Sequence record: PX418213.1
Reading direction: 5' to 3' (one strand)
Length of the DNA stretch: 64,000 nt
From: a phage
Below are positions 3,420 through 62,041 of this stretch, piece after piece (position 1 is the first letter of the stretch; every line of letters starts with the position of its first letter). The position numbers and the translations under genes were made by a program. Under the pieces are notes generated by a model that saw nothing but the letters and a program-made list of their open reading frames with translations, did not search any database and was not told the DNA's origin.

Positions 3420-3827
3420 TTATTCACCTGCGGCTTGTTTTACCTCATCGGCAACGCCTAACAACTGCGCCACGGCGTCCAGCGTTTCCAGCTTCGCGCT
3501 TTCAAGGCTTGCCAGATCATCGGCGTCCTTGATAATGCCGGAATCGATAGCGTGTTTTGCAATTACTCGCACATAGTGAGCTTTACGGATTGAGCTGCCG
3601 CCGCCAACCTTGCGCGGCTTGTCGCTTTTTTGGTAGGCTTTCGCGCTGGTCAATTTCGAACGAACTGACACGGGAGAAGCCGCACCAACTGCTTTCGCGA
3701 TCTCTTTCAAGCCGTCGCTATTTGCGAATTCTAGCCCGTTTTCATTGATTAACTGCTGATACATGGAAACAGCCTGCTGGGTGTTTTCTTCGTTCCAGGA
3801 AAATTTTGCGGCTTTAACGTTAGTCAT
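3420..3827 (-). CDS. hypothetical protein
   Basis: 135-aa ORF, co-directional, tightly packed. Confidence 0.55.
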   Translation of the reverse strand: MTNVKAAKFSWNEENTQQAVSMYQQLINENGLEFANSDGLKEIAKAVGAASPVSVRSKLTSAKAYQKSDKPRKVGGGSSIRKAHYVRVIAKHAIDSGIIKDADDLASLESAKLETLDAVAQLLGVADEVKQAAGE

Positions 3828-5365: not shown

Positions 5366-5497
5366 AAGTGAGAACCACTATCATTTAAGTTATCCACAAC
5401 GTTATCCACAGCACAAAATAATTTGACACGATAGGCGGCGATATGAGGGCTTTTACACAGACTTATCCACAGGTTATCCTACTGTATAAATATACAG
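5366..5497. repeat. left arm of ~130-bp imperfect inverted repeat with three TTATCCACA boxes
   Basis: reverse complement closely matches 8755-8886 at both ends (gtgagaac...ttatccaca...ctgtataaatatacag). Confidence 0.65.
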
Positions 5498-8496: not shown

Positions 8497-8754
8497 TAAT
8501 CACGGGGCGCAACTATCCGGGAGTGCCCCCAATTTTCAAACGATAATCATTCTCATTTGACCGCGCTCGCGATGGTTAGCCTGCTAATGGTTCGGGTGTT
8601 ACGTGTCGCCTTGTGTGATCGTTAGCGTGCTAACTAATTTTCAAGCCTCCTCCAATTTTGCCCTTGTTTTAGTATCTCCACCAAAATAAAACGCGTTAGA
8701 ATGCGTTTGAGAGCGTTTTAGCGGTATATTAGAATTATTCACTACATAGGAATA

Positions 8755-8886
8755 CTGTATATTTATACAGTAGGATAAGCTGTGGATAAGTCTGTTAATA
8801 ACGCCTCAAAATGGCTAGGATTCTGTCAAGTCAAATCGTGCTGTTAATAAGTCTGTGGATAACTTAAATAACAGTGTTTCTCACTT
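8755..8886. repeat. right arm of ~130-bp imperfect inverted repeat with TGTGGATAA boxes
   Basis: ctgtatatttatacagtaggataagctgtggataag ... tgtggataacttaaataacagtgtttctcac mirrors 5366-5497. Confidence 0.65.
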
Positions 8887-8889
8887 CCG

Positions 8890-9125
8890 TTCTTAAATGA
8901 GAATCATTATCATTTGCATTTCACTATCTAACTAATAATCATTCCACTTTTTAAATGAGAATCGTTCCACTTCCTGAATAATTTTCGTTCCACTTTCTAA
9001 ATGATAATCGTTATCATTTGCATTCCTCTTTCTAAATGCGAATCATTCCACTTCTTAAATGAGAATCGTTTCACTTTTTAAATGAGAATTATTATCATTC
9101 TCATTCCGCTTTTTAAATGAGAATG
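8890..9125. repeat. array of about 7 TAAATGAGAAT-type motifs
   Basis: taaatgagaat and variants (taaatgataat, taaatgcgaat) at irregular 23-60 bp spacing in AT-rich DNA. Confidence 0.6.
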
Positions 9126-9148
9126 ATTCTTATTATCATTCGTATTTA

Positions 9149-9170
9149 GCGCAGGGCAATTGCCCTGCGC
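9149..9170. promoter_or_regulatory. perfect 22-bp palindrome GCGCAGGGCAATTGCCCTGCGC
   Basis: exact palindrome between the two repeat arrays. Confidence 0.6.
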
Positions 9171-9174
9171 TTTT

Positions 9175-9397
9175 GTGCAAATCCGACATTGCTCCACGGG
9201 TGTTACGTGCGGGCGTGTATGTGCGAATCCGACAATTTTTGGTAGTGTGCAAATCCGACTCGAAAAATTTTTATAGTGTGCAAATCCGACAATGAATTTT
9301 TCTAGAAACTCCAGCAATCTCGAACTGCGCATCAATCCTGTGGAGTATGTGCAAATCCGACATGGTTTTTCTAGGATTAAGATGTGCGAATCCGACA
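9175..9397. repeat. six direct copies of GTGC(A/G)AATCCGAC, each followed by a T-run
   Basis: copies at 9175, 9221, 9247, 9278, 9349, 9384. Confidence 0.7.
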
Positions 9398-9725
9398 AGA
9401 TTTTTGTGACTTCGATGAGAGGGTGTGTGATTGTGTGAGTTTGAGGAGAAGTTGAGAGAGCGAGTGAAACTTGGGGGAACTGCGAGAGGGGCGCATGTTT
9501 GGTGCAGGGCACCTGATTTGCGGGGATTTTGGGGAAGAGTTGAGAAGATTTGGGTTAATTTGAGATTAGGGGAGATAAAGTAAAATTTTATTAGCAAAAT
9601 GGGGCAAAATAGCTTGACAAGTGAAAATTTCTGTGGCTCTAAAAACTCAGGCAATCATGGGCCTTCGGCCCGAAATAATGCTGCTATTTTCAGGAGATTA
9701 TATGTTCCTAAAAACTTAGGCAATT

Positions 9726-9774
9726 GTGCAAATCCGACCATAAATTTCTAGAAACACAATGTGCGAATCCGACA
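9726..9774. repeat. two further GTGC(A/G)AATCCGAC copies
   Basis: gtgcaaatccgacc at 9726 and gtgcgaatccgaca at 9761. Confidence 0.65.
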
Positions 9775-10284
9775 GTAATTTCTGGAAATGTGTTTTCAAA
9801 AAATGTCCCCTAGAAATAACCGCCCTCCTCATAACCGCCCTGTATTAAACCGCCTAGTATATGTTCCTAGAAACTTAGGAGAACCGCCCACTAGAAGTGT
9901 AGTATCTCGTGAGTATTTCGTGAGAACTCTGGAGTTTCTAGGAAAGTGTTGTGCCACCCTAGCAGATGAGCGGCAACAGGTGTATCATCTTGAATGTAAA
10001 TTATGTGGTCAAAAGTTTTACTTTTATTTTAAATATAAGATCCCCCAGGGTTCTCATATAGAGCTTTGCCCCCGCCAGAAGGTCTCGTGGTGTTTCTAGC
10101 AATTTATATTAAATTACTTATTAACTTGTCCTGTCGCTCCGTATCCTCCGCTACAAGTTAGTAATTTTAAATTACTGAACCACCACACCTTCTGTGTGGC
10201 AACTCTAAATGGTTAATTCTATTAACTCATAGAGTTATGATAACATACATTTAGCTATCTGTCAACGAGAGTTTGTATTTGAGT

Positions 10285-10309
10285 CTCGGTACAGATATTG
10301 TGCACCGAG
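10285..10309. other. stem-loop at boundary of repeat region and early genes
   Basis: CTCGGT (10285-10290) pairs with ACCGAG (10304-10309), 13-nt loop. Confidence 0.4.
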
Positions 10310-10321
10310 ACATGCAGGATC

Positions 10322-11206
10322 TTACAGTAACTCTTGGTATGCTTTTTGATACGCCTCAGTGTCAGTAGGTGTATCTTTTGCTAGTGCAATTAGTTCATCT
10401 GTTATCTGAATATTCGTATTATAACGTGAGTGGAACTCGTTAGGAATTTCTAGGTATCTATTGATGAATGCTGCAGCAAGCGGTGTGACTAAACCAATCT
10501 CTAGAGATAGCTTAACTTGTTTTTCGTAGATTAAATATTGAGAATCAGATGGGGTTGGTGGGGTTACATCAGTTTTCTCCGGTTCTTTTTCTGGAAGCAA
10601 GGGATTATTATATAATGCTTCATCTGGAAGCACAGATTTACGCTCTTTAAATATATAAGTTTCTAGATCCGATGCTTTAGATCCTGAGTATACCGCAAAG
10701 ACGCTAGCTTTACCCTGGGATGCCCTAACTGGTAAATAACTAGTAGGATAGCTTCTTAATGCATCATGGAATGGACTTCCTGAGTACTTGTACGTATCCC
10801 CATAGAGATCATCAATATTCATTCGTTCATCTTCAAAAATGTGAAAAGAGCTAAATGATGGGATAGTAAAGTATTCCATCTGTAATCCATAAACTAAGAA
10901 ACGATGTGCATATGCGCTAATCTTTAAGACTGTGAATGCTTTTTCACCTTCTTTATGGGCGTTGCCTTTTGAAGTAACTTGATAACGTTTACAAAACATC
11001 TCTACTAGACGTTTCTCATTAATACTAAGGGTGGAGTATAGTCGTCCACTTAATCCTATAAGTGCATCGAACATAAATGCTAGTTTATCTTTTTCTTCCT
11101 GAGATAGTTCTGGAAACGGTAATACTTTCGCATTAGGAACATTATTGTTCTCTTTAGGTTTTGTTTTACCAGCATTTTGTCTTAGTTTATCTTTAAAGTT
11201 ATACAT
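10322..11206 (-). CDS. hypothetical protein
   Basis: 294-aa ORF. Confidence 0.6.
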   Translation of the reverse strand: MYNFKDKLRQNAGKTKPKENNNVPNAKVLPFPELSQEEKDKLAFMFDALIGLSGRLYSTLSINEKRLVEMFCKRYQVTSKGNAHKEGEKAFTVLKISAYAHRFLVYGLQMEYFTIPSFSSFHIFEDERMNIDDLYGDTYKYSGSPFHDALRSYPTSYLPVRASQGKASVFAVYSGSKASDLETYIFKERKSVLPDEALYNNPLLPEKEPEKTDVTPPTPSDSQYLIYEKQVKLSLEIGLVTPLAAAFINRYLEIPNEFHSRYNTNIQITDELIALAKDTPTDTEAYQKAYQELL

Positions 11207-11285: not shown

Positions 11286-11888
11286 TTAATCCTTTTTACT
11301 CTCATTAATAGCAGCTCCCAACGCCTCCATAATAGCATCTTCTAAACTTCCATGTTGACTAGGATTATTAAAATGAATAGTACAAACAGAACTCCTAGAA
11401 ACTCCAGCATCCGCAGGTGCTACGCTTCGCATATCAGATTCAAAAGCTTCTTGAGTATGTTTCAACTGTACAGAAGGGCCGTAATCTTCCCCAAATTTAT
11501 ATGACTGCGTACTACTTACCACACCCCCACAAGGAACATTGTGCATATCCGATGATTTATTCAGCATTGCGATTGTCCCCGACTGCCACGGATCCCGAAT
11601 AGTTACTGGAGTACTAGGGCGGTTCACCTCAGCCTTCACAAGTTTGTACCCTGCATCGATTAATGCGTTAATTAGATTATCAGCTGGGATGCGAGCCTTA
11701 CCAAAAATCTTGCGAGCGTCTTCGAGCTTATCCTCAAGACCTTTACATGCTCTAAGGTCAGTGTGTGCAAAGGTTAGCTTCATAGATTTGAATTGTACAG
11801 TAGCAGTTAAATCTTTAAAGCTATAATCCCATGTATTCAGTTCATGATCTGGTACTACTTGAATAGATTGTTGCGCATTAAAAGTCAT
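11286..11888 (-). CDS. hypothetical protein
   Basis: 200-aa ORF. Confidence 0.6.
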   Translation of the reverse strand: MTFNAQQSIQVVPDHELNTWDYSFKDLTATVQFKSMKLTFAHTDLRACKGLEDKLEDARKIFGKARIPADNLINALIDAGYKLVKAEVNRPSTPVTIRDPWQSGTIAMLNKSSDMHNVPCGGVVSSTQSYKFGEDYGPSVQLKHTQEAFESDMRSVAPADAGVSRSSVCTIHFNNPSQHGSLEDAIMEALGAAINESKKD

Positions 11889-20519: not shown

Positions 20520-21272
20520 TTATCCAACTAGTGGTTCTAGCTCTAAGTCACAGAAGTTATAAACTTCTAGTTTAAGGTTATTGATACCATCGAATTTATT
20601 AACTAATTCGTGAGTAATATATTTTGCAGGAATACCACTTTCAGATGGATGATCTGATTTAATAGTAAACTTCTGCTCAGCGGGTACTACATTTACTATC
20701 AAAGAATCCATATCTAAATGGTTTGTTTCTCTGAGTAGCTCTCCTTCATTGGGGAATCTAACATCTGTTATTACGGCGACGTCTGGGTCGTCTTTAGCGA
20801 TGGATTGCTCCAGAATTATGAGCCAAATGCGTTCGTGCACCAGCTGTCTTCCTAGCTCTGTCCCTACGAGCTGTAACATTTTTCTCGGAGAAATAAATAA
20901 ACTGTAAAGTCCGTCTTCTTTATTCTCTGAGATAAGTTGTTGAGGATTAAGATATTTTTCCTCAAAAATAGGCCAAACGTACGAGAAGTCTTCAAACTTA
21001 TCGATACCGTACTTAAACCACACATCTCTGGCTCGCTCCAATTGAGATTGTGTGACCGTAAACCATTGGTCAATCTCTTTCCCCCTGCGCTCTCCTAGAA
21101 ACTCTGGAGTTACACCGAGGATTACGGATGCAAGTTCATAAACGGGCTTAGCAAAACTATAACGATGAGAAAAACACGTTGGATACGTGTCATTACACCA
21201 ATCGATAATTAATTTTGCAACGGTATCTTTTCCCGAACCAGCTTCACCATGTAAACCGACTAATACTGACAT
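20520..21272 (-). CDS. dnk: deoxynucleoside monophosphate kinase
   Basis: 250 aa; P-loop GEAGSGKDT at N-terminus. Confidence 0.65.
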   Translation of the reverse strand: MSVLVGLHGEAGSGKDTVAKLIIDWCNDTYPTCFSHRYSFAKPVYELASVILGVTPEFLGERRGKEIDQWFTVTQSQLERARDVWFKYGIDKFEDFSYVWPIFEEKYLNPQQLISENKEDGLYSLFISPRKMLQLVGTELGRQLVHERIWLIILEQSIAKDDPDVAVITDVRFPNEGELLRETNHLDMDSLIVNVVPAEQKFTIKSDHPSESGIPAKYITHELVNKFDGINNLKLEVYNFCDLELEPLVG

Positions 21273-37959: not shown

Positions 37960-37994
37960 CAGAAAAGCCCGCGCTCTCGGAGGAAACGCGGGCT
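37960..37994 (-). terminator. rho-independent terminator for SPFH gene
   Basis: GCCCGCG...CGCGGGC hairpin with U-run on minus strand. Confidence 0.6.
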
Positions 37995-59254: not shown

Positions 59255-62041
59255 GTGTTCTCAATCCTACAAGGTCATGCAGGATTTCATCGCGATTTAG
59301 CCACAGGCAATTGGCGAGAAGTTAAAGCAGAAGACTATCTTTTTGCTAAAAGATTTTCCTCAAAGCATCCTGAAGGTAAACCAGCTTCAATGCCCTTCAA
59401 GTTTGATGTAATTGATGAAGTTGATCCTCAAACCCTAGTAGAAATGCTTCCTCTTATGAGACGTTTAACGTCTGACCCTCATATCGTTGCGGTACGAGGT
59501 CGATGTCTTGCACCTAAAAATAATGTGCGACGTAAGAAGGGCAACTTTAATATATCTAACCCAAGTCATATAATTGCAATGGACGTGGATGGTATTGTAG
59601 ATACAGGTGGTTGTAACAAGTTTGATCTTGTTGGCATGGCTCGACATATTATTAGAATGTTAAATAGTATTAGTGAGGATATGTTTCCTCTTGATGCAGG
59701 GTTTATTGCTCATGCATCGTCTTCGGCTGGACTAAAACCAGGTATCCGAATGCACTTAATACTAGAATCTAATGTTAAAGTAACTCAGGGTCAAATCAAA
59801 TTCTTATTTACATCTATCAACGAAAGTAGTAGACAAAAGTATGGCTTTGATATTGCCGACTTAGCCTATTACTCTTCCGTACAGCTCCATTACTTTGCAG
59901 ATCCGTTATTTATCGATGGTATAGTAGATCCGTTTAAAGCGGAGGGTGCTTCACGTCTGGTATTTGTTAAGGGTTCTAAAGTAAATTTACCCAATAATCT
60001 GGTTGACTATGAAACAACTAGGGGTGAGTTTAAAGAGGAGTTTTACTCTTTACTCGATCAAATTAAAGGTAAAAAAGCTGCCTCTGATAAAGTAGAGGAA
60101 ACTATCAGCGAACTAGAAGAAGCTGAGGATGGAGTGTATCTACGTATCATACCTAAACTCTATCACAGAGCTTTAGAGGATGGTGTTGACTTTGCATGGC
60201 TAGAAAAAGAAATCCGTCCAGCCTTATCAGAGTATATTGCAACTAAAGATAATAGTCGTAATATTCAAGATTACTTTAATAACGGTCGTAAACAGGCTCT
60301 GAAAGCATTTGTTAATAATTCTAAACGTGATATACCGGATGTTTTAAAAGGTATTCCACTTAAAAAACTAGAAACTAATTCTCTAGAAACTGATAACTTC
60401 TTGAAATTAAATACTGTACCACCAGAAGGTTATATGACTTTTGTAAAAGCAAGTCTAGGTACAGGTAAAACTACAGCGGTTGTGCGTTGGTTAGACTCAG
60501 GAGTTATTAAAGGTAATTTCTTAGCAATTACCAATACTAGAGCGCTAGTATCTTCAAATGCTAAGAAATTTAGTGCAGGACAATATGATAAGTCTGTAGA
60601 TATGCTTAATTTTAAGCGTGGTGCTATTGACCGTATGTCCACAACTATTCACTCTTTGCATAAGTTCAAGAGTTTTATTGGTCAAATTGATGCAATCTTT
60701 ATCGATGAATGTGATGCTGTAATGAATGACCTATTATTCGCCCCGGTTGTTAAACAACGTCGTGAATGTATTCAGGTTCTTCGAGACATTCTTGCAACTG
60801 CAAAAATCATTATATTATCTGATGGGGATATTAGTGCAGAAACAATTGAAGCATATGGTTCTTTGATTGAGTTTGATAAACCGGTTGCATTTTATAATCA
60901 TCACCGTAAAATGCTATCAAAAGCTCATGCTTATGAGTTCCCGGATGAATCCAGTATTTGGGTTGCACTTCAGACTTCTCTAGAGATGGGTGAGAAATCT
61001 ATCCTAGTATCTGACTGTGGGCCGGATGAACTGAATGAGAAGGGCATGGCATTACGTCGTAATACGGGTGCGTTAGTTAAGGAAATCCACTCAAACTCTA
61101 CGTCTGATGTAGATATTCGACGTATTCTGGATTACACAACTAATGAGCTAATTGATCAACAAATTGATTGCTTATTATGTAGTCCATCGGTAACAAGTGG
61201 TGTTGACTTTAACTACTTTGATAACGTATTCGTTATTACTAGAACCTCAAACCAAGCGCCAAACATGCGTTTCCAAGCAATCAGGCGCGACCGTGGTGCT
61301 CAGAACATTTATTATTTTATTGATAAATCTACGAGTGGGTTCTCCGCAGGTTCTGAGCAATATAACATTGATGAAGGTTGGCTGGAGTTAGCACAGCAAT
61401 TATACGCACGTCGCAGGGAGCTGGAATCTAGAAACTATACTAGTACTCTACGTTATTACTTGCTTGATCAGGGTGCAACTATTGATATTTTCAGTGAAAG
61501 CTGGGGAAATATCGAAGGTGCAGGAAAAGAGTATACGGAAGAGCGAATCAAAGCTATTTTGTATTCAACTCCTGATTATTGTGCTCCACGCCATGCAGAT
61601 GCGTATGAAGCTAAACTACTTCTTGTTCGCTATTACCATCTTGAGTCTATTAAAGATGTAACAGTTGAGCATGTTGAACAATATATCAAAGATAAACCGA
61701 ATGATCGAGCTGCATTCTTCCATAAGATGCACGAGATGTTCTGGGAAGATATTAAGAAGTGTTCAAATGTCACTATCAAACCCTTTATAGAAGCTCTGAA
61801 AGGTAAGAAGAAAGATTTCTTCCTTAAAACAGGTCAGAGTGCTAACCCAAAATATGCGAGAATGTATCTTGGTATGATGGGTATTGGCAAGGATATGAAC
61901 ACGGAGAATATTGTAGACTGGTACAGAACCTATTGTAAAATCGAGTGTATGCCAATCCCCCTAAAATTCATGACAGAGGAAGAGAAGGCCATGGCAGAAG
62001 AAGTAATGTCCGAACTTGGAGCAACCAATGAAGATACATAA
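59255..62041 (+). CDS. primase-polymerase / helicase-like fusion protein
   Basis: ORF called from TTG 59177; GTG 59255 behind AGGAG RBS preferred; N-terminal IIAMDVDG and IRMHLIL (AEP-like), C-terminal Walker A LGTGKTT and Walker B FIDECD. Confidence 0.55.
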   Translation: MFSILQGHAGFHRDLATGNWREVKAEDYLFAKRFSSKHPEGKPASMPFKFDVIDEVDPQTLVEMLPLMRRLTSDPHIVAVRGRCLAPKNNVRRKKGNFNISNPSHIIAMDVDGIVDTGGCNKFDLVGMARHIIRMLNSISEDMFPLDAGFIAHASSSAGLKPGIRMHLILESNVKVTQGQIKFLFTSINESSRQKYGFDIADLAYYSSVQLHYFADPLFIDGIVDPFKAEGASRLVFVKGSKVNLPNNLVDYETTRGEFKEEFYSLLDQIKGKKAASDKVEETISELEEAEDGVYLRIIPKLYHRALEDGVDFAWLEKEIRPALSEYIATKDNSRNIQDYFNNGRKQALKAFVNNSKRDIPDVLKGIPLKKLETNSLETDNFLKLNTVPPEGYMTFVKASLGTGKTTAVVRWLDSGVIKGNFLAITNTRALVSSNAKKFSAGQYDKSVDMLNFKRGAIDRMSTTIHSLHKFKSFIGQIDAIFIDECDAVMNDLLFAPVVKQRRECIQVLRDILATAKIIILSDGDISAETIEAYGSLIEFDKPVAFYNHHRKMLSKAHAYEFPDESSIWVALQTSLEMGEKSILVSDCGPDELNEKGMALRRNTGALVKEIHSNSTSDVDIRRILDYTTNELIDQQIDCLLCSPSVTSGVDFNYFDNVFVITRTSNQAPNMRFQAIRRDRGAQNIYYFIDKSTSGFSAGSEQYNIDEGWLELAQQLYARRRELESRNYTSTLRYYLLDQGATIDIFSESWGNIEGAGKEYTEERIKAILYSTPDYCAPRHADAYEAKLLLVRYYHLESIKDVTVEHVEQYIKDKPNDRAAFFHKMHEMFWEDIKKCSNVTIKPFIEALKGKKKDFFLKTGQSANPKYARMYLGMMGIGKDMNTENIVDWYRTYCKIECMPIPLKFMTEEEKAMAEEVMSELGATNEDT

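What the first reader, a model, noticed from the sequence alone, without database searches (positions are those of the whole stretch)
9296..9940. Repeated palindromic TTCTAGAA(A) operator-like motif
At least eight TTCTAGAAA-like sites (near 9300, 9366, 9690, 9745, 9780, 9812, 9862, 9930) lie among the other repeats. Palindromic 8-10 bp sites fit a dimeric DNA-binding regulator.
Basis: seen in the sequence. Interest (0 to 1): 0.45.

Follow-up and report, generated by a model that had tools for sequence, protein, structure and literature searches.

The report
T5 terminal-repeat-end CTAGAAAC repeat array
The TTCTAGAA-like sites are real, non-random copies of a mostly non-palindromic 17-21 bp repeat in the long-known repeat-rich 'injection stop' non-coding region of a T5-like phage; one invariant copy sits exactly at the right end of the terminal repeat, and what the repeat does is unknown.

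Summary
The window is the left 64 kb of a T5-like phage (Tequintavirus). [quoted passage not shown]

**Observation.** It is partly confirmed. Only two sites are exact TTTCTAGAAA. Four more differ by one base, two are half-sites, and two further copies lie outside the given range. Enrichment is strong: 0 of 2000 local dinucleotide shuffles reach the observed counts.

**What the sites are.** Sixteen relatives show that the conserved unit is not a palindrome. It is an oriented repeat, TTYCTA(G/A)AAACTYMRG(CAAT), held at fixed positions relative to the LTR end: -342, -4, +60, +105, +167, about +221 and about +270. The 9300 site carries CTAG only in this phage. The -4 copy is invariant and spans the terminal-repeat boundary annotated in four genomes (…GTGGCTC|TAAAAACTCAGG, window 9639|9640).

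**Interpretation.** No promoter overlaps any site, so the 'operator of a dimeric regulator' reading is weak. My best inference is a protein-recognition array tied to forming or packaging the genome end. Binding by the pre-early protein A2 is the main rival.

**Caveat.** Motif columns are not more conserved than their neighbours, so a function for these copies specifically is not shown.

**Verdict.** This is a new member of a known kind, of moderate to low interest.

The parts
9298..9318 (+). Long-family copy TTTTCTAGAAACTCCAGCAAT, at -341 from the terminal-repeat end and inside the LTR. Its core TTTCTAGAAA (9299-9308) is a perfect palindrome only in this phage.
   Evidence: PWM score 22.9. All 15 relatives have TTTCC(C/T)AAAAACTCCAGCAAT here. 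It forms a 24-nt, 83% complementary inverted repeat with 9922-9945 (I4).
9362..9378 (-). Short copy (+ strand TTTTTCTAGGATT), lying between two GTGCRAATCCGAC repeats.
   Evidence: PWM score 16.7. It is part of the 57-nt duplicated module 9348-9404 / 9725-9781 (D4). It is present in only 4-6 of 16 phages and is deleted or replaced in T5.
9635..9655 (+). Invariant copy GGCTC|TAAAAACTCAGGCAAT. It spans the inferred right end of the left terminal repeat, 9639|9640.
   Evidence: The terminal-repeat boundary falls after GTGGCTC in T5 AY543070, Sepoy (PhageTerm), Elw and SIA3lw. Mean column identity is 0.97 across 16 phages. This block is the only part of the region still alignable in the Klebsiella phages.
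9704..9724 (+). Long-family copy GTTCCTAAAAACTTAGGCAAT, at +65.
   Evidence: PWM score 19.4. A copy is present at +56 or +65 in 12 of 16 phages. Direct-repeat families D5 and D6.
9744..9760 (+). Short copy ATTTCTAGAAACACAAT, at +105. It is a perfect palindrome TTTCTAGAAA and follows a GTGCAAATCCGAC repeat by 6 nt.
   Evidence: PWM score 20.6. TTTCTAGAAA is kept in 13 of 16 phages. It pairs as an 18-nt, 94% complementary inverted repeat with 10090-10107 (I9).
9778..9794 (+). Degenerate copy ATTTCTGGAAATGTGTT. It follows the last GTGCGAATCCGAC repeat.
   Evidence: PWM score 9.4. Relatives have TTTCTGGAAA, TTTCCAGAAA or AATCCAGAAA.
9806..9822 (+). Half-site copy TCCCCTAGAAATAACCG, at +167. It runs into the AACCGCC repeats.
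   Evidence: PWM score 13.2. CTAGAAATAACCGCC is kept in 15 of 16 phages.
9863..9879 (+). Long-family copy GTTCCTAGAAACTTAGG, at +224.
   Evidence: PWM score 21.9. This arrangement is shared only with phage YJin. The other phages have a minus-strand copy at about +221 and a plus-strand copy at +262 to +311.
9929..9945 (-). Long-family copy on the minus strand, TTTCCTAGAAACTCCAG, at +290.
   Evidence: PWM score 23.8. It is a 12/12 inverted repeat with 9864-9875 (I16).
10087..10103 (-). Short copy on the minus strand, ATTGCTAGAAACACCAC, at +448.
   Evidence: PWM score 19.4. It is present in the 7 of 16 phages that share this right-hand segment.
9175..9773 (+). Context: eight same-strand copies of GTGCRAATCCGAC (T5 'DRD'), starting at 9175, 9221, 9247, 9278, 9349, 9384, 9726 and 9761. 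Four of them are followed 5-7 nt later by a TTTCTRG site.
   Evidence: Eight exact matches against 1.3 expected for the whole window at ≤2 mismatches. These columns are significantly more conserved than their surroundings (0.90 vs 0.81, p = 2e-4).
9148..9171 (.). Context: palindrome AGCGCAGGGCAATTGCCCTGCGCT, homologous to the T5 7.9% major nick site (nick after ...CCCTGCGC on the minus strand).
   Evidence: AY543070 annotates the nick at 9748/9749, which maps here. The block is invariant in 16 phages.
8767..8873 (.). Context: paired DnaA boxes (TGTGGATAA and TGTTAATAA) in an inverted repeat (T5 IRD'-spacer-IRC'). The inverted partner lies at 5383-5497.
   Evidence: Described for T5-like phages in Davison, bioRxiv 10.1101/866236.
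11391..11409 (+). Outlying long-family copy ACTCCTAGAAACTCCAGCA, inside the T5.019-like early ORF.
   Evidence: PWM score 22.2. It shares a 15-nt exact match, CTAGAAACTCCAGCA, with 9302-9316. It is conserved in DT57C, HildyBeyeler and S126 but not in T5.

Best explanation
**Shown.**
- The sites are copies of an oriented 17-21 bp repeat, consensus TTYCTA(G/A)AAACTYMRG(CAAT).
- The repeat belongs to the conserved non-coding 'Repeat Region 3 / injection stop signal' module of T5-like phages.
- The copies sit at fixed distances from the right end of the long terminal repeat.
- One invariant copy spans that end exactly (…GTGGCTC|TAAAAACTCAGGCAAT; window 9639|9640 by homology).

**Inferred.**
- The array is a set of recognition sites for a phage protein that acts on this DNA end.
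- I favour the end-forming and packaging machinery.
  - The left end of T5 DNA enters the cell first, so by the usual last-in-first-out rule the right end should be packaged first. That rule was not tested here.
  - The cut at GTGGCTC| would then be the packaging-start cut in the concatemer.
  - The flanking copies (-342 and -278 on the packaged side, +60 to +450 beyond it) would act like the multiple small-terminase binding elements around other phage cut sites (lambda cosB R sites, P1 pac hexamers).
- The CTAG and partial palindromy are incidental variants of CTA(A/G)AAAC.
For: **Identity of the region.**
- The region is 84.8-93.8% identical to T5 and other Tequintavirus phages.
- It aligns with the annotated iss region, nick site and LTR end of T5.

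**Enrichment.** No local shuffle out of 2000 reaches the observed counts. Of the 12 best PWM sites in 64 kb, 8 fall within 9298-10103.

**Array geometry.** Motif positions relative to the terminal-repeat end are the same in 16 phages of two genera.

**Terminal-repeat boundary.** It lies after GTGGCTC in four separately annotated genomes, one of them by PhageTerm.

**Conservation around the boundary.** That copy and its flanks (9580-9680) are the most conserved stretch, at 0.92-0.99 identity. They are the only part retained in the Klebsiella phages and in Eos.

**Persistence through rearrangement.** In the rearranged segment at +206 to +311, every one of the 16 phages keeps at least one high-scoring long copy. 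Ten of the 16 keep an inverted pair.
Against: - No protein binding was tested.
- No motif copy lies near the left genome end or left of the right terminal repeat (RTR) in T5, so the motif cannot explain both cuts.
- Motif columns are not more conserved than the other non-coding columns (0.85 vs 0.81, p = 0.25).
- The more distant relatives Sealy and Eos keep the boundary copy but almost none of the others.
- Much of the multiplicity comes from segmental duplication (D4 and D6).
- Extra copies occur 1.75 kb and 11.5 kb away, inside genes. A packaging role does not predict these.
- The terminal-repeat end of this phage itself is inferred by homology and was not measured.
Confidence: 0.35

Rival explanations
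1. The sites bind the pre-early DNA-binding protein A2, alone or with A1. This would hold, release or ratchet the DNA at the pause between first-step and second-step transfer, because the array starts at or just to the right of the stop point.
For: - The window encodes an A2 homologue at 3420-3827 (-), matching phrog_1725 'DNA binding protein' at 1e-51.
- A2 is essential for second-step transfer and is proposed to associate with viral DNA by an unknown mechanism (bioRxiv 10.64898/2026.04.02.716235).
- The T5 shear point at about 7.9% maps near window 9120, so the GTGCRAATCCGAC and CTARAAAC arrays are the first DNA to enter on restart.
- Most copies share one orientation, which would fit a directional process.
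Against: - No sequence specificity of A2 turned up in the papers I could search.
- A2 has no Pfam domain.
- A single-sequence model (pLDDT 75) gave no significant structural match; the best was E = 0.31 to small helix-turn-helix (HTH) or Myb-like domains.
- The exact coincidence of one copy with the terminal-repeat boundary is not explained.
- Copies inside genes far from the stop point are not explained.
Confidence: 0.2
2. The copies have no sequence-specific role of their own. They are products of old segmental duplications and rearrangements in a region conserved for other reasons (terminal-repeat boundary, nick site, GTGCRAATCCGAC repeats, DnaA boxes), possibly relics of former boundary sequences.
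For: - Motif columns are no more conserved than neighbouring non-coding columns.
- The sites are embedded in longer duplicated modules (D4, D5 and D6).
- Copy number and orientation differ between phages.
- The more distant relatives lack most copies.
Against: - Copies are held at the same positions across two genera.
- At least one copy survives in every phage within the otherwise scrambled +206 to +311 segment.
- Between paralogous copies, identity drops right after the 17-21 nt core.
Confidence: 0.2
3. This is the first reader's reading: palindromic operators for a dimeric transcriptional regulator that controls early phage genes.
For: - Two perfect 10-bp palindromes and four near-palindromes are present.
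- A near-consensus sigma-70 promoter on the minus strand at 10265-10237 fires leftwards into the array.
Against: - Palindromy is not conserved at orthologous sites.
- No site overlaps a promoter. The nearest site lies about 130 nt downstream of that promoter.
- The flanking transcription units converge on the region.
- No known RNA family is present.
Confidence: 0.07
4. The sites are restriction-like cleavage targets for A1/A2, as in Davison's model: a palindrome to the right of the block, present in both terminal repeats, is cut to release the DNA and circularise the genome.
For: Davison proposes cleavage at one of the palindromes in this region (10.1101/866236, section 4.6). TTTCTAGAAA is a palindrome containing TCTAGA.
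Against: - The conserved palindromic copy (9745) lies outside the terminal repeat, so it is absent from the RTR.
- The two copies inside the repeat are non-palindromic or absent in T5 and most relatives.
Confidence: 0.03

Closest known systems
Phage T5 LTR 'Repeat Region 3' / injection stop signal (iss) region (Heusterspreute 1987, cited from memory; Wang 2005; Davison 2015 and 2020)
   Same: The order of elements matches T5:
- a DnaA-box inverted repeat with an upstream inverted partner;
- AAATGAGAATCATT repeats;
- the GCGC nick palindrome;
- 8-9 GTGCRAATCCGAC repeats;
- the LTR end;
- further repeats overrunning into unique DNA.

The region is 84.8% identical to T5 itself.
   Different: - This phage has its own variants: CTAG at the -341 copy, an extra copy at 9362, and a different arrangement at +224 and +290 shared only with YJin.
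- The accessible T5 paper lists repeats and palindromes by name and assigns them no function. It does not mention the CTARAAAC family or its coincidence with the LTR end.
- I could not read the Wang 2005 or Davison 2015 tables, so I cannot say which named repeat (DRA? PalG-J?) these sites correspond to.
Lambda cosB R elements and the P1 pac hexamer array (terminase recognition repeats). From general knowledge, not tested here.
   Same: Several short, similar elements in both orientations are clustered within a few hundred bp of a specific genome-end cut. One element is at the cut.
   Different: - No terminase binding data exist for T5 in the literature I could search.
- The T5 ends are 10-kb direct repeats, not cohesive or headful ends.
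- No copies occur at the left end.
Plasmid and phage origin iteron arrays with DnaA boxes (for example RK2 oriV). From general knowledge.
   Same: DnaA boxes, AT-rich repeats and multiple same-orientation short repeats lie together in a non-coding block.
   Different: According to Davison, T5 replication origins were mapped near the genome centre. No initiator gene lies adjacent.

Membership tests
T5-type LTR Repeat Region 3 / iss region | Non-coding block at the right end of the left terminal repeat, between pre-early and early genes | tested here: met
   Window position 1 corresponds to T5 position 2. The region aligns with T5 9356-10939, which carries the annotated iss, nick and LTR end. 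Only short overlapping ORFs of no more than 144 aa lie between about 8560 and 10322; T5 annotates no gene here and the 9788-10099 frame is broken by indels in relatives.
T5-type LTR Repeat Region 3 / iss region | IRD'-spacer-IRC' with paired DnaA boxes, and an inverted partner in Repeat Region 2 | tested here: met
   TGTGGATAA at 8781 and 8854, paired with TGTTAATAA at 8793 and 8842. Inverted matches lie at 5383-5497.
T5-type LTR Repeat Region 3 / iss region | Multiple DRD repeats (GTGCRAATCCGAC) and AAATGAGAATCATT-type repeats | tested here: met
   Eight exact DRD copies. Repeat family D1 at 8894-9141.
T5-type LTR Repeat Region 3 / iss region | Actually halts DNA transfer at about 8% of the genome | not testable with these tools
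   Needs a blender/shear experiment.
Palindromic operator of a dimeric regulator | Dyad symmetry conserved at orthologous sites | tested here: not met
   The 9300 site is non-palindromic in 15 of 15 relatives. The left half-site varies at 9780 and 9807.
Palindromic operator of a dimeric regulator | Sites overlap or adjoin a promoter that they control | tested here: not met
   None of the 13 promoter-like matches overlaps a site. This is a consensus scan only.
Palindromic operator of a dimeric regulator | A cognate regulator binds the sites | not testable with these tools
   Needs EMSA or footprinting.
Terminase recognition array (cosB / pac type) | Clustered around the specific genome-end cleavage site | tested here: met
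   The terminal-repeat end lies after GTGGCTC in four annotated genomes, inside the invariant copy. The other copies lie from -342 to +480. The end in this phage is by homology only.
Terminase recognition array (cosB / pac type) | Bound by the small terminase and required for cutting or packaging | not testable with these tools
   Needs biochemistry or genetics.
Terminase recognition array (cosB / pac type) | Motif more constrained than the surrounding spacer DNA | tested here: inconclusive
   Identity 0.85 vs 0.81, Mann-Whitney p = 0.25. The whole module is highly conserved, so the test has little power.
A1/A2 restriction-like site (Davison model) | A palindrome present in both terminal repeats, to the right of the block | tested here: not met
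   The conserved palindrome at 9745 is outside the terminal repeat. The copies inside it are non-palindromic or absent in most phages.

The most novel reading that the evidence does not exclude
The CTARAAAC array, anchored by the invariant copy cut at GTGGCTC|TAAAAAC, is the long-sought cis signal that a T5 protein reads. That protein would be either terminase, to start packaging and set the terminal-repeat boundary, or A2, to restart DNA transfer. In either case the sites give a defined, mutable sequence handle on how T5 makes 10-kb terminal repeats or how second-step transfer restarts.
Probability: 0.3. Interest if true: 0.6.

Novelty: new member of a known kind. Interest (0 to 1): 0.3.

Why it matters
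How T5 stops and restarts DNA entry has been open for more than 50 years. So has how it cuts concatemers to give exact 10-kb terminal repeats. The repeats in this region have been catalogued without functions.

Two points from this work give small, specific targets for binding and mutational tests:
- One repeat family has an invariant member exactly at the terminal-repeat boundary.
- The other members of that family sit at fixed offsets from the boundary in 16 phages.

If the copies turn out to be passengers, the finding is just one more description of a known repeat-rich region.

Tried and rejected
1. **Palindromic operator.** Rejected on ortholog comparison and lack of promoter overlap.
2. 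**Structured RNA.** Rfam at E ≤ 1 gave only sub-threshold chance hits.
3. **Link to the T5 nicks.**
   - The 18.5% major nick site is directly followed by a motif copy (CCCTGCGC|TCTCCTAGAAACTCTGG, window 21083-21107, identical in T5).
   - The 7.9%, 32.6% and 64.8% nick sites are not, so the motif is not a general part of the nick signal.
4. **Relatedness of GTGCAAATCCGAC and CCTAGAAACTCCAG.** Only 6 of 14 positions are identical, which is not meaningful.
5. **Column-conservation test of motif against spacer.** Not significant.
6. **Co-variation between the boundary copy and other copies in the Klebsiella phage Sealy.** GCGAA appears in both, but this is a single case and too weak.
7. **A2 fold.** No Pfam or PDB sequence hit. 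A single-sequence AlphaFold model gave no significant Foldseek match.
8. **Full-text searches for the motif strings.** Only unrelated primers were found.
9. **Papers not held.** Davison 2015 was not held; Wang 2005 was not looked up. Mapping these sites onto the DRA and Pal names is therefore unresolved.
10. **Helical phasing.** Spacings of 69, 40, 62 and 57 nt are not multiples of 10.5.

Full report
**Where this is.**
- The window starts within one base of the left end of a T5-like genome: window 1-60 matches T5 AY543070 2-61.
- The 8700-10300 stretch matches 456 phage records, almost all Tequintavirus or Epseptimavirus. The best hits are 92-93% identical and T5 itself is about 85%.
- Aligned with T5, the finding falls in the block that AY543070 annotates as 'injection stop signal (iss)', next to the 'major DNA single-chain interruption' and the end of the 10,219-bp left terminal repeat.
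- Davison (bioRxiv 10.1101/866236) calls this 'Repeat Region 3'. He describes a nested set of direct repeats, inverted repeats and palindromes that is conserved in 25 T5-like phages and has no assigned functions.
- The same elements are present here in the same order:

| Element | Window position |
|---|---|
| Paired DnaA boxes in an inverted repeat | 8767-8873 (inverted partner at 5383-5497) |
| AAATGAGAATCATT repeats | 8894-9141 |
| GCGC nick palindrome | 9148-9171 |
| GTGCRAATCCGAC repeats, eight copies on the same strand | 9175-9773 |

**The observation.**
- Exact TTCTAGAA occurs only at 9300 and 9746.
- Of the eight listed sites, two are perfect TTTCTAGAAA and four differ by one base. The site given as 9812 is a half-site (CCCCTAGAAA). 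The site given as 9690 is TTCCTAAAAA at 9705 and has no CTAG.
- Family members at 9636 and 10093 were missed.
- The cluster is not chance. Six of the 11 window-wide hits to TTTCTAGAAA with at most 1 mismatch lie in 1 kb. No dinucleotide-preserving shuffle of the region itself, out of 2000, reaches the observed counts for any of the patterns tested.

**What the repeat really is.**
- Aligning the ten copies in one orientation gives a core CTA(G/A)AAAC, a T/C-rich 5' flank and, in six copies, a 3' extension CT(C/T)(C/A)(A/G)G, often followed by CAAT.
- A weight matrix built from these copies puts 8 of the 12 best sites in 64 kb within 9298-10103.
- In an alignment with 15 relatives, the 9300 site is TTTCC(C/T)AAAAACTCCAGCAAT in every other phage, so its palindrome is private to this genome.
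- The 9780 site varies between TTTCTGGAAA, TTTCCAGAAA and AATCCAGAAA. The 9807 site keeps only CTAGAAATAACCGCC.
- The conserved feature is therefore an oriented repeat and not a dyad.
- About half of the sites ride on longer duplicated modules (D4-D6).

**Array geometry and the repeat boundary.**
- Scanning all 16 phages and indexing to …GTGGCTC|TAAAAA gives the same positions everywhere:

| Position relative to the boundary | Strand | Presence |
|---|---|---|
| -342 | + | all 16 |
| -278 | - | some |
| -4 | + | all 16 |
| +56 or +65 | + | most (12 of 16) |
| +105 | + | most |
| +167 | + | most |
| about +221 | - | many |
| +262 to +311 | + | most |
| +433 to +482 | - | those sharing the right-hand segment |

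- The terminal-repeat boundary is annotated immediately after GTGGCTC in T5, Sepoy (PhageTerm), Elw and SIA3lw.
- By homology the boundary in this phage is 9639|9640, inside the invariant copy GGCTC|TAAAAACTCAGGCAAT.
- This copy and its flanks (9580-9680) are the most conserved part of the whole region, at 0.92-0.99 identity. They are the only part still alignable in the Klebsiella phages and in Eos.
- In the segment at +206 to +311 the alignment breaks down. Even so, every phage keeps at least one high-scoring long copy there, and ten keep an inverted pair.

**Mechanism.** Nothing here shows binding, so this part is inference.
- The left end of T5 DNA enters the cell first, so by the usual last-in-first-out rule the right end should be packaged first. 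The cut at GTGGCTC| would then start packaging on the concatemer.
- An invariant family member at the cut, with similar elements on both sides in both orientations, is the layout of terminase recognition arrays in other phages (lambda cosB, P1 pac; from general knowledge). I rate this reading at about 0.35.
- The main rival (0.2) is binding by A2.
  - A2 is the essential pre-early DNA-binding protein needed for second-step transfer, and the window encodes a homologue.
  - The arrays begin at or just right of the stop point.
  - Its fold could not be classified.
- A 'passenger' reading (0.2) is kept alive by three observations:
  - motif columns are not more conserved than neighbouring columns (0.85 vs 0.81, p = 0.25), whereas the GTGCRAATCCGAC repeats are (p = 2e-4);
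  - the distant relatives have lost most copies;
  - part of the multiplicity comes from segmental duplication.
- The operator reading (0.07) fails on symmetry and on promoter overlap.
- Davison's proposed A1/A2 cleavage palindrome must lie in both terminal repeats. The conserved palindromic copy lies outside the repeat, so it does not fit.

**Against the favoured reading.**
- There is no copy at the left genome end or just left of the RTR in T5.
- Strong copies also occur inside the T5.019-like gene (11391-11409, conserved in three of four relatives checked) and next to the 18.5% nick site in dnk (21091-21107).

**Novelty and score.**
- The region and its repeats have been known in T5 for decades. 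This is another phage's version of it.
- The text I could read does not mention that one repeat family is anchored on the terminal-repeat boundary with fixed offsets across genera. I could not check the Wang 2005 or Davison 2015 tables, so I do not claim priority.
- Interest is 0.3. It would rise to about 0.6 if the array proves to be the packaging or restart signal.

Noticed in passing
window 10237-10265 (- strand): A near-consensus sigma-70 promoter (TTGACA, 17-nt spacer, TATCAT, with an upstream TG) fires leftwards into the repeat array and towards the terminal-repeat end. In nine relatives the -10 region reads TGTTATAAT. The element is kept even where the flanking sequence is a different mosaic segment. 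T5 annotates no gene or RNA downstream of it.
   Followed up: partly
window 11391-11409 and 11541-11553 (inside the - strand ORF 11286-11888, a T5.019 homologue): An early gene contains a strong motif copy, ACTCCTAGAAACTCCAGCA. About 140 nt to its right is a GTGCAWATCCGA repeat. That repeat lies within a 20-nt block, GGAACATTGTGCA(A/T)ATCCGA, conserved in all five phages compared apart from one A/T position. Both repeat types therefore extend 1.75-1.9 kb beyond the terminal-repeat end.
   Followed up: partly
window 21083-21107, and 37969-37990: The homologue of the T5 18.5% major nick site reads CCCTGCGC|TCTCCTAGAAACTCTGG, identical in T5, so a motif copy abuts the nick. The 32.6% site reads GCCCGCGC|TCTCGGAGGAAAC here and GCCCTGCGC|TCTCCAGGGAAC in T5. 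The 7.9% and 64.8% sites have no such flank. The shared element at all four sites is GCCC(T)GCGC.
   Followed up: yes
window 9818-9888 and 35-41: AACCGCC occurs four times just right of the terminal-repeat end (9818, 9833, 9848, 9882) and only once elsewhere in the 64 kb, 35 nt from the left genome end. The T5 left end also has it (gctAACCGCCaccc).
   Followed up: no
window 9400-9600: A strongly purine-rich, G/T-rich stretch with short repeats (GAGTTTGAGGAGAAGTTGAGA and GATTTTGGGGAAGAGTTGAGA) lies immediately left of the terminal-repeat end. GC skew is positive here. The Klebsiella phage Sealy has an analogous GGGGTTGATTGGGG repeat at the same place.
   Followed up: no
window 9946-9996: The block GTGTTGTGCCACCCTAGCAGATGAGCGGCAACAGGTGTATCATCTTGAA is nearly invariant in 16 phages. 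It marks the right edge of the universally shared module. Beyond about 9994 the phages carry at least three alternative segments.
   Followed up: partly
window 9863-9945 compared with relatives: This phage and YJin have the two long copies pointing towards each other (+224 plus strand, +290 minus strand). Nine others have them pointing apart (about +221 minus strand, about +270 plus strand), and the remaining five keep only the plus-strand copy. A simple inversion cannot convert one arrangement into the other.
   Followed up: partly
window 32841, 34727, 40110: Loose matches to GTGCRAATCCGAC fall on GTTCGAATCC, a sequence typical of tRNA T-arms (tRNA genes not checked here). The repeat resembles a T-arm. 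This is probably coincidence.
   Followed up: no
window 60368-60390: Two CTAGAAAC cores lie 15 nt apart (CTAGAAACTAATTCTCTAGAAACTG) in the + strand late-gene part of the window.
   Followed up: no
window 9659-9671: The hairpin GGGCCTTCGGCCC lies 20 nt right of the terminal-repeat end and is almost invariant in 16 phages. Sealy and Eos have a different hairpin at the same position (CGGTGACACACCG and CGGGCTTCGCCCG), which suggests that the structure is conserved and the sequence is not.
   Followed up: no
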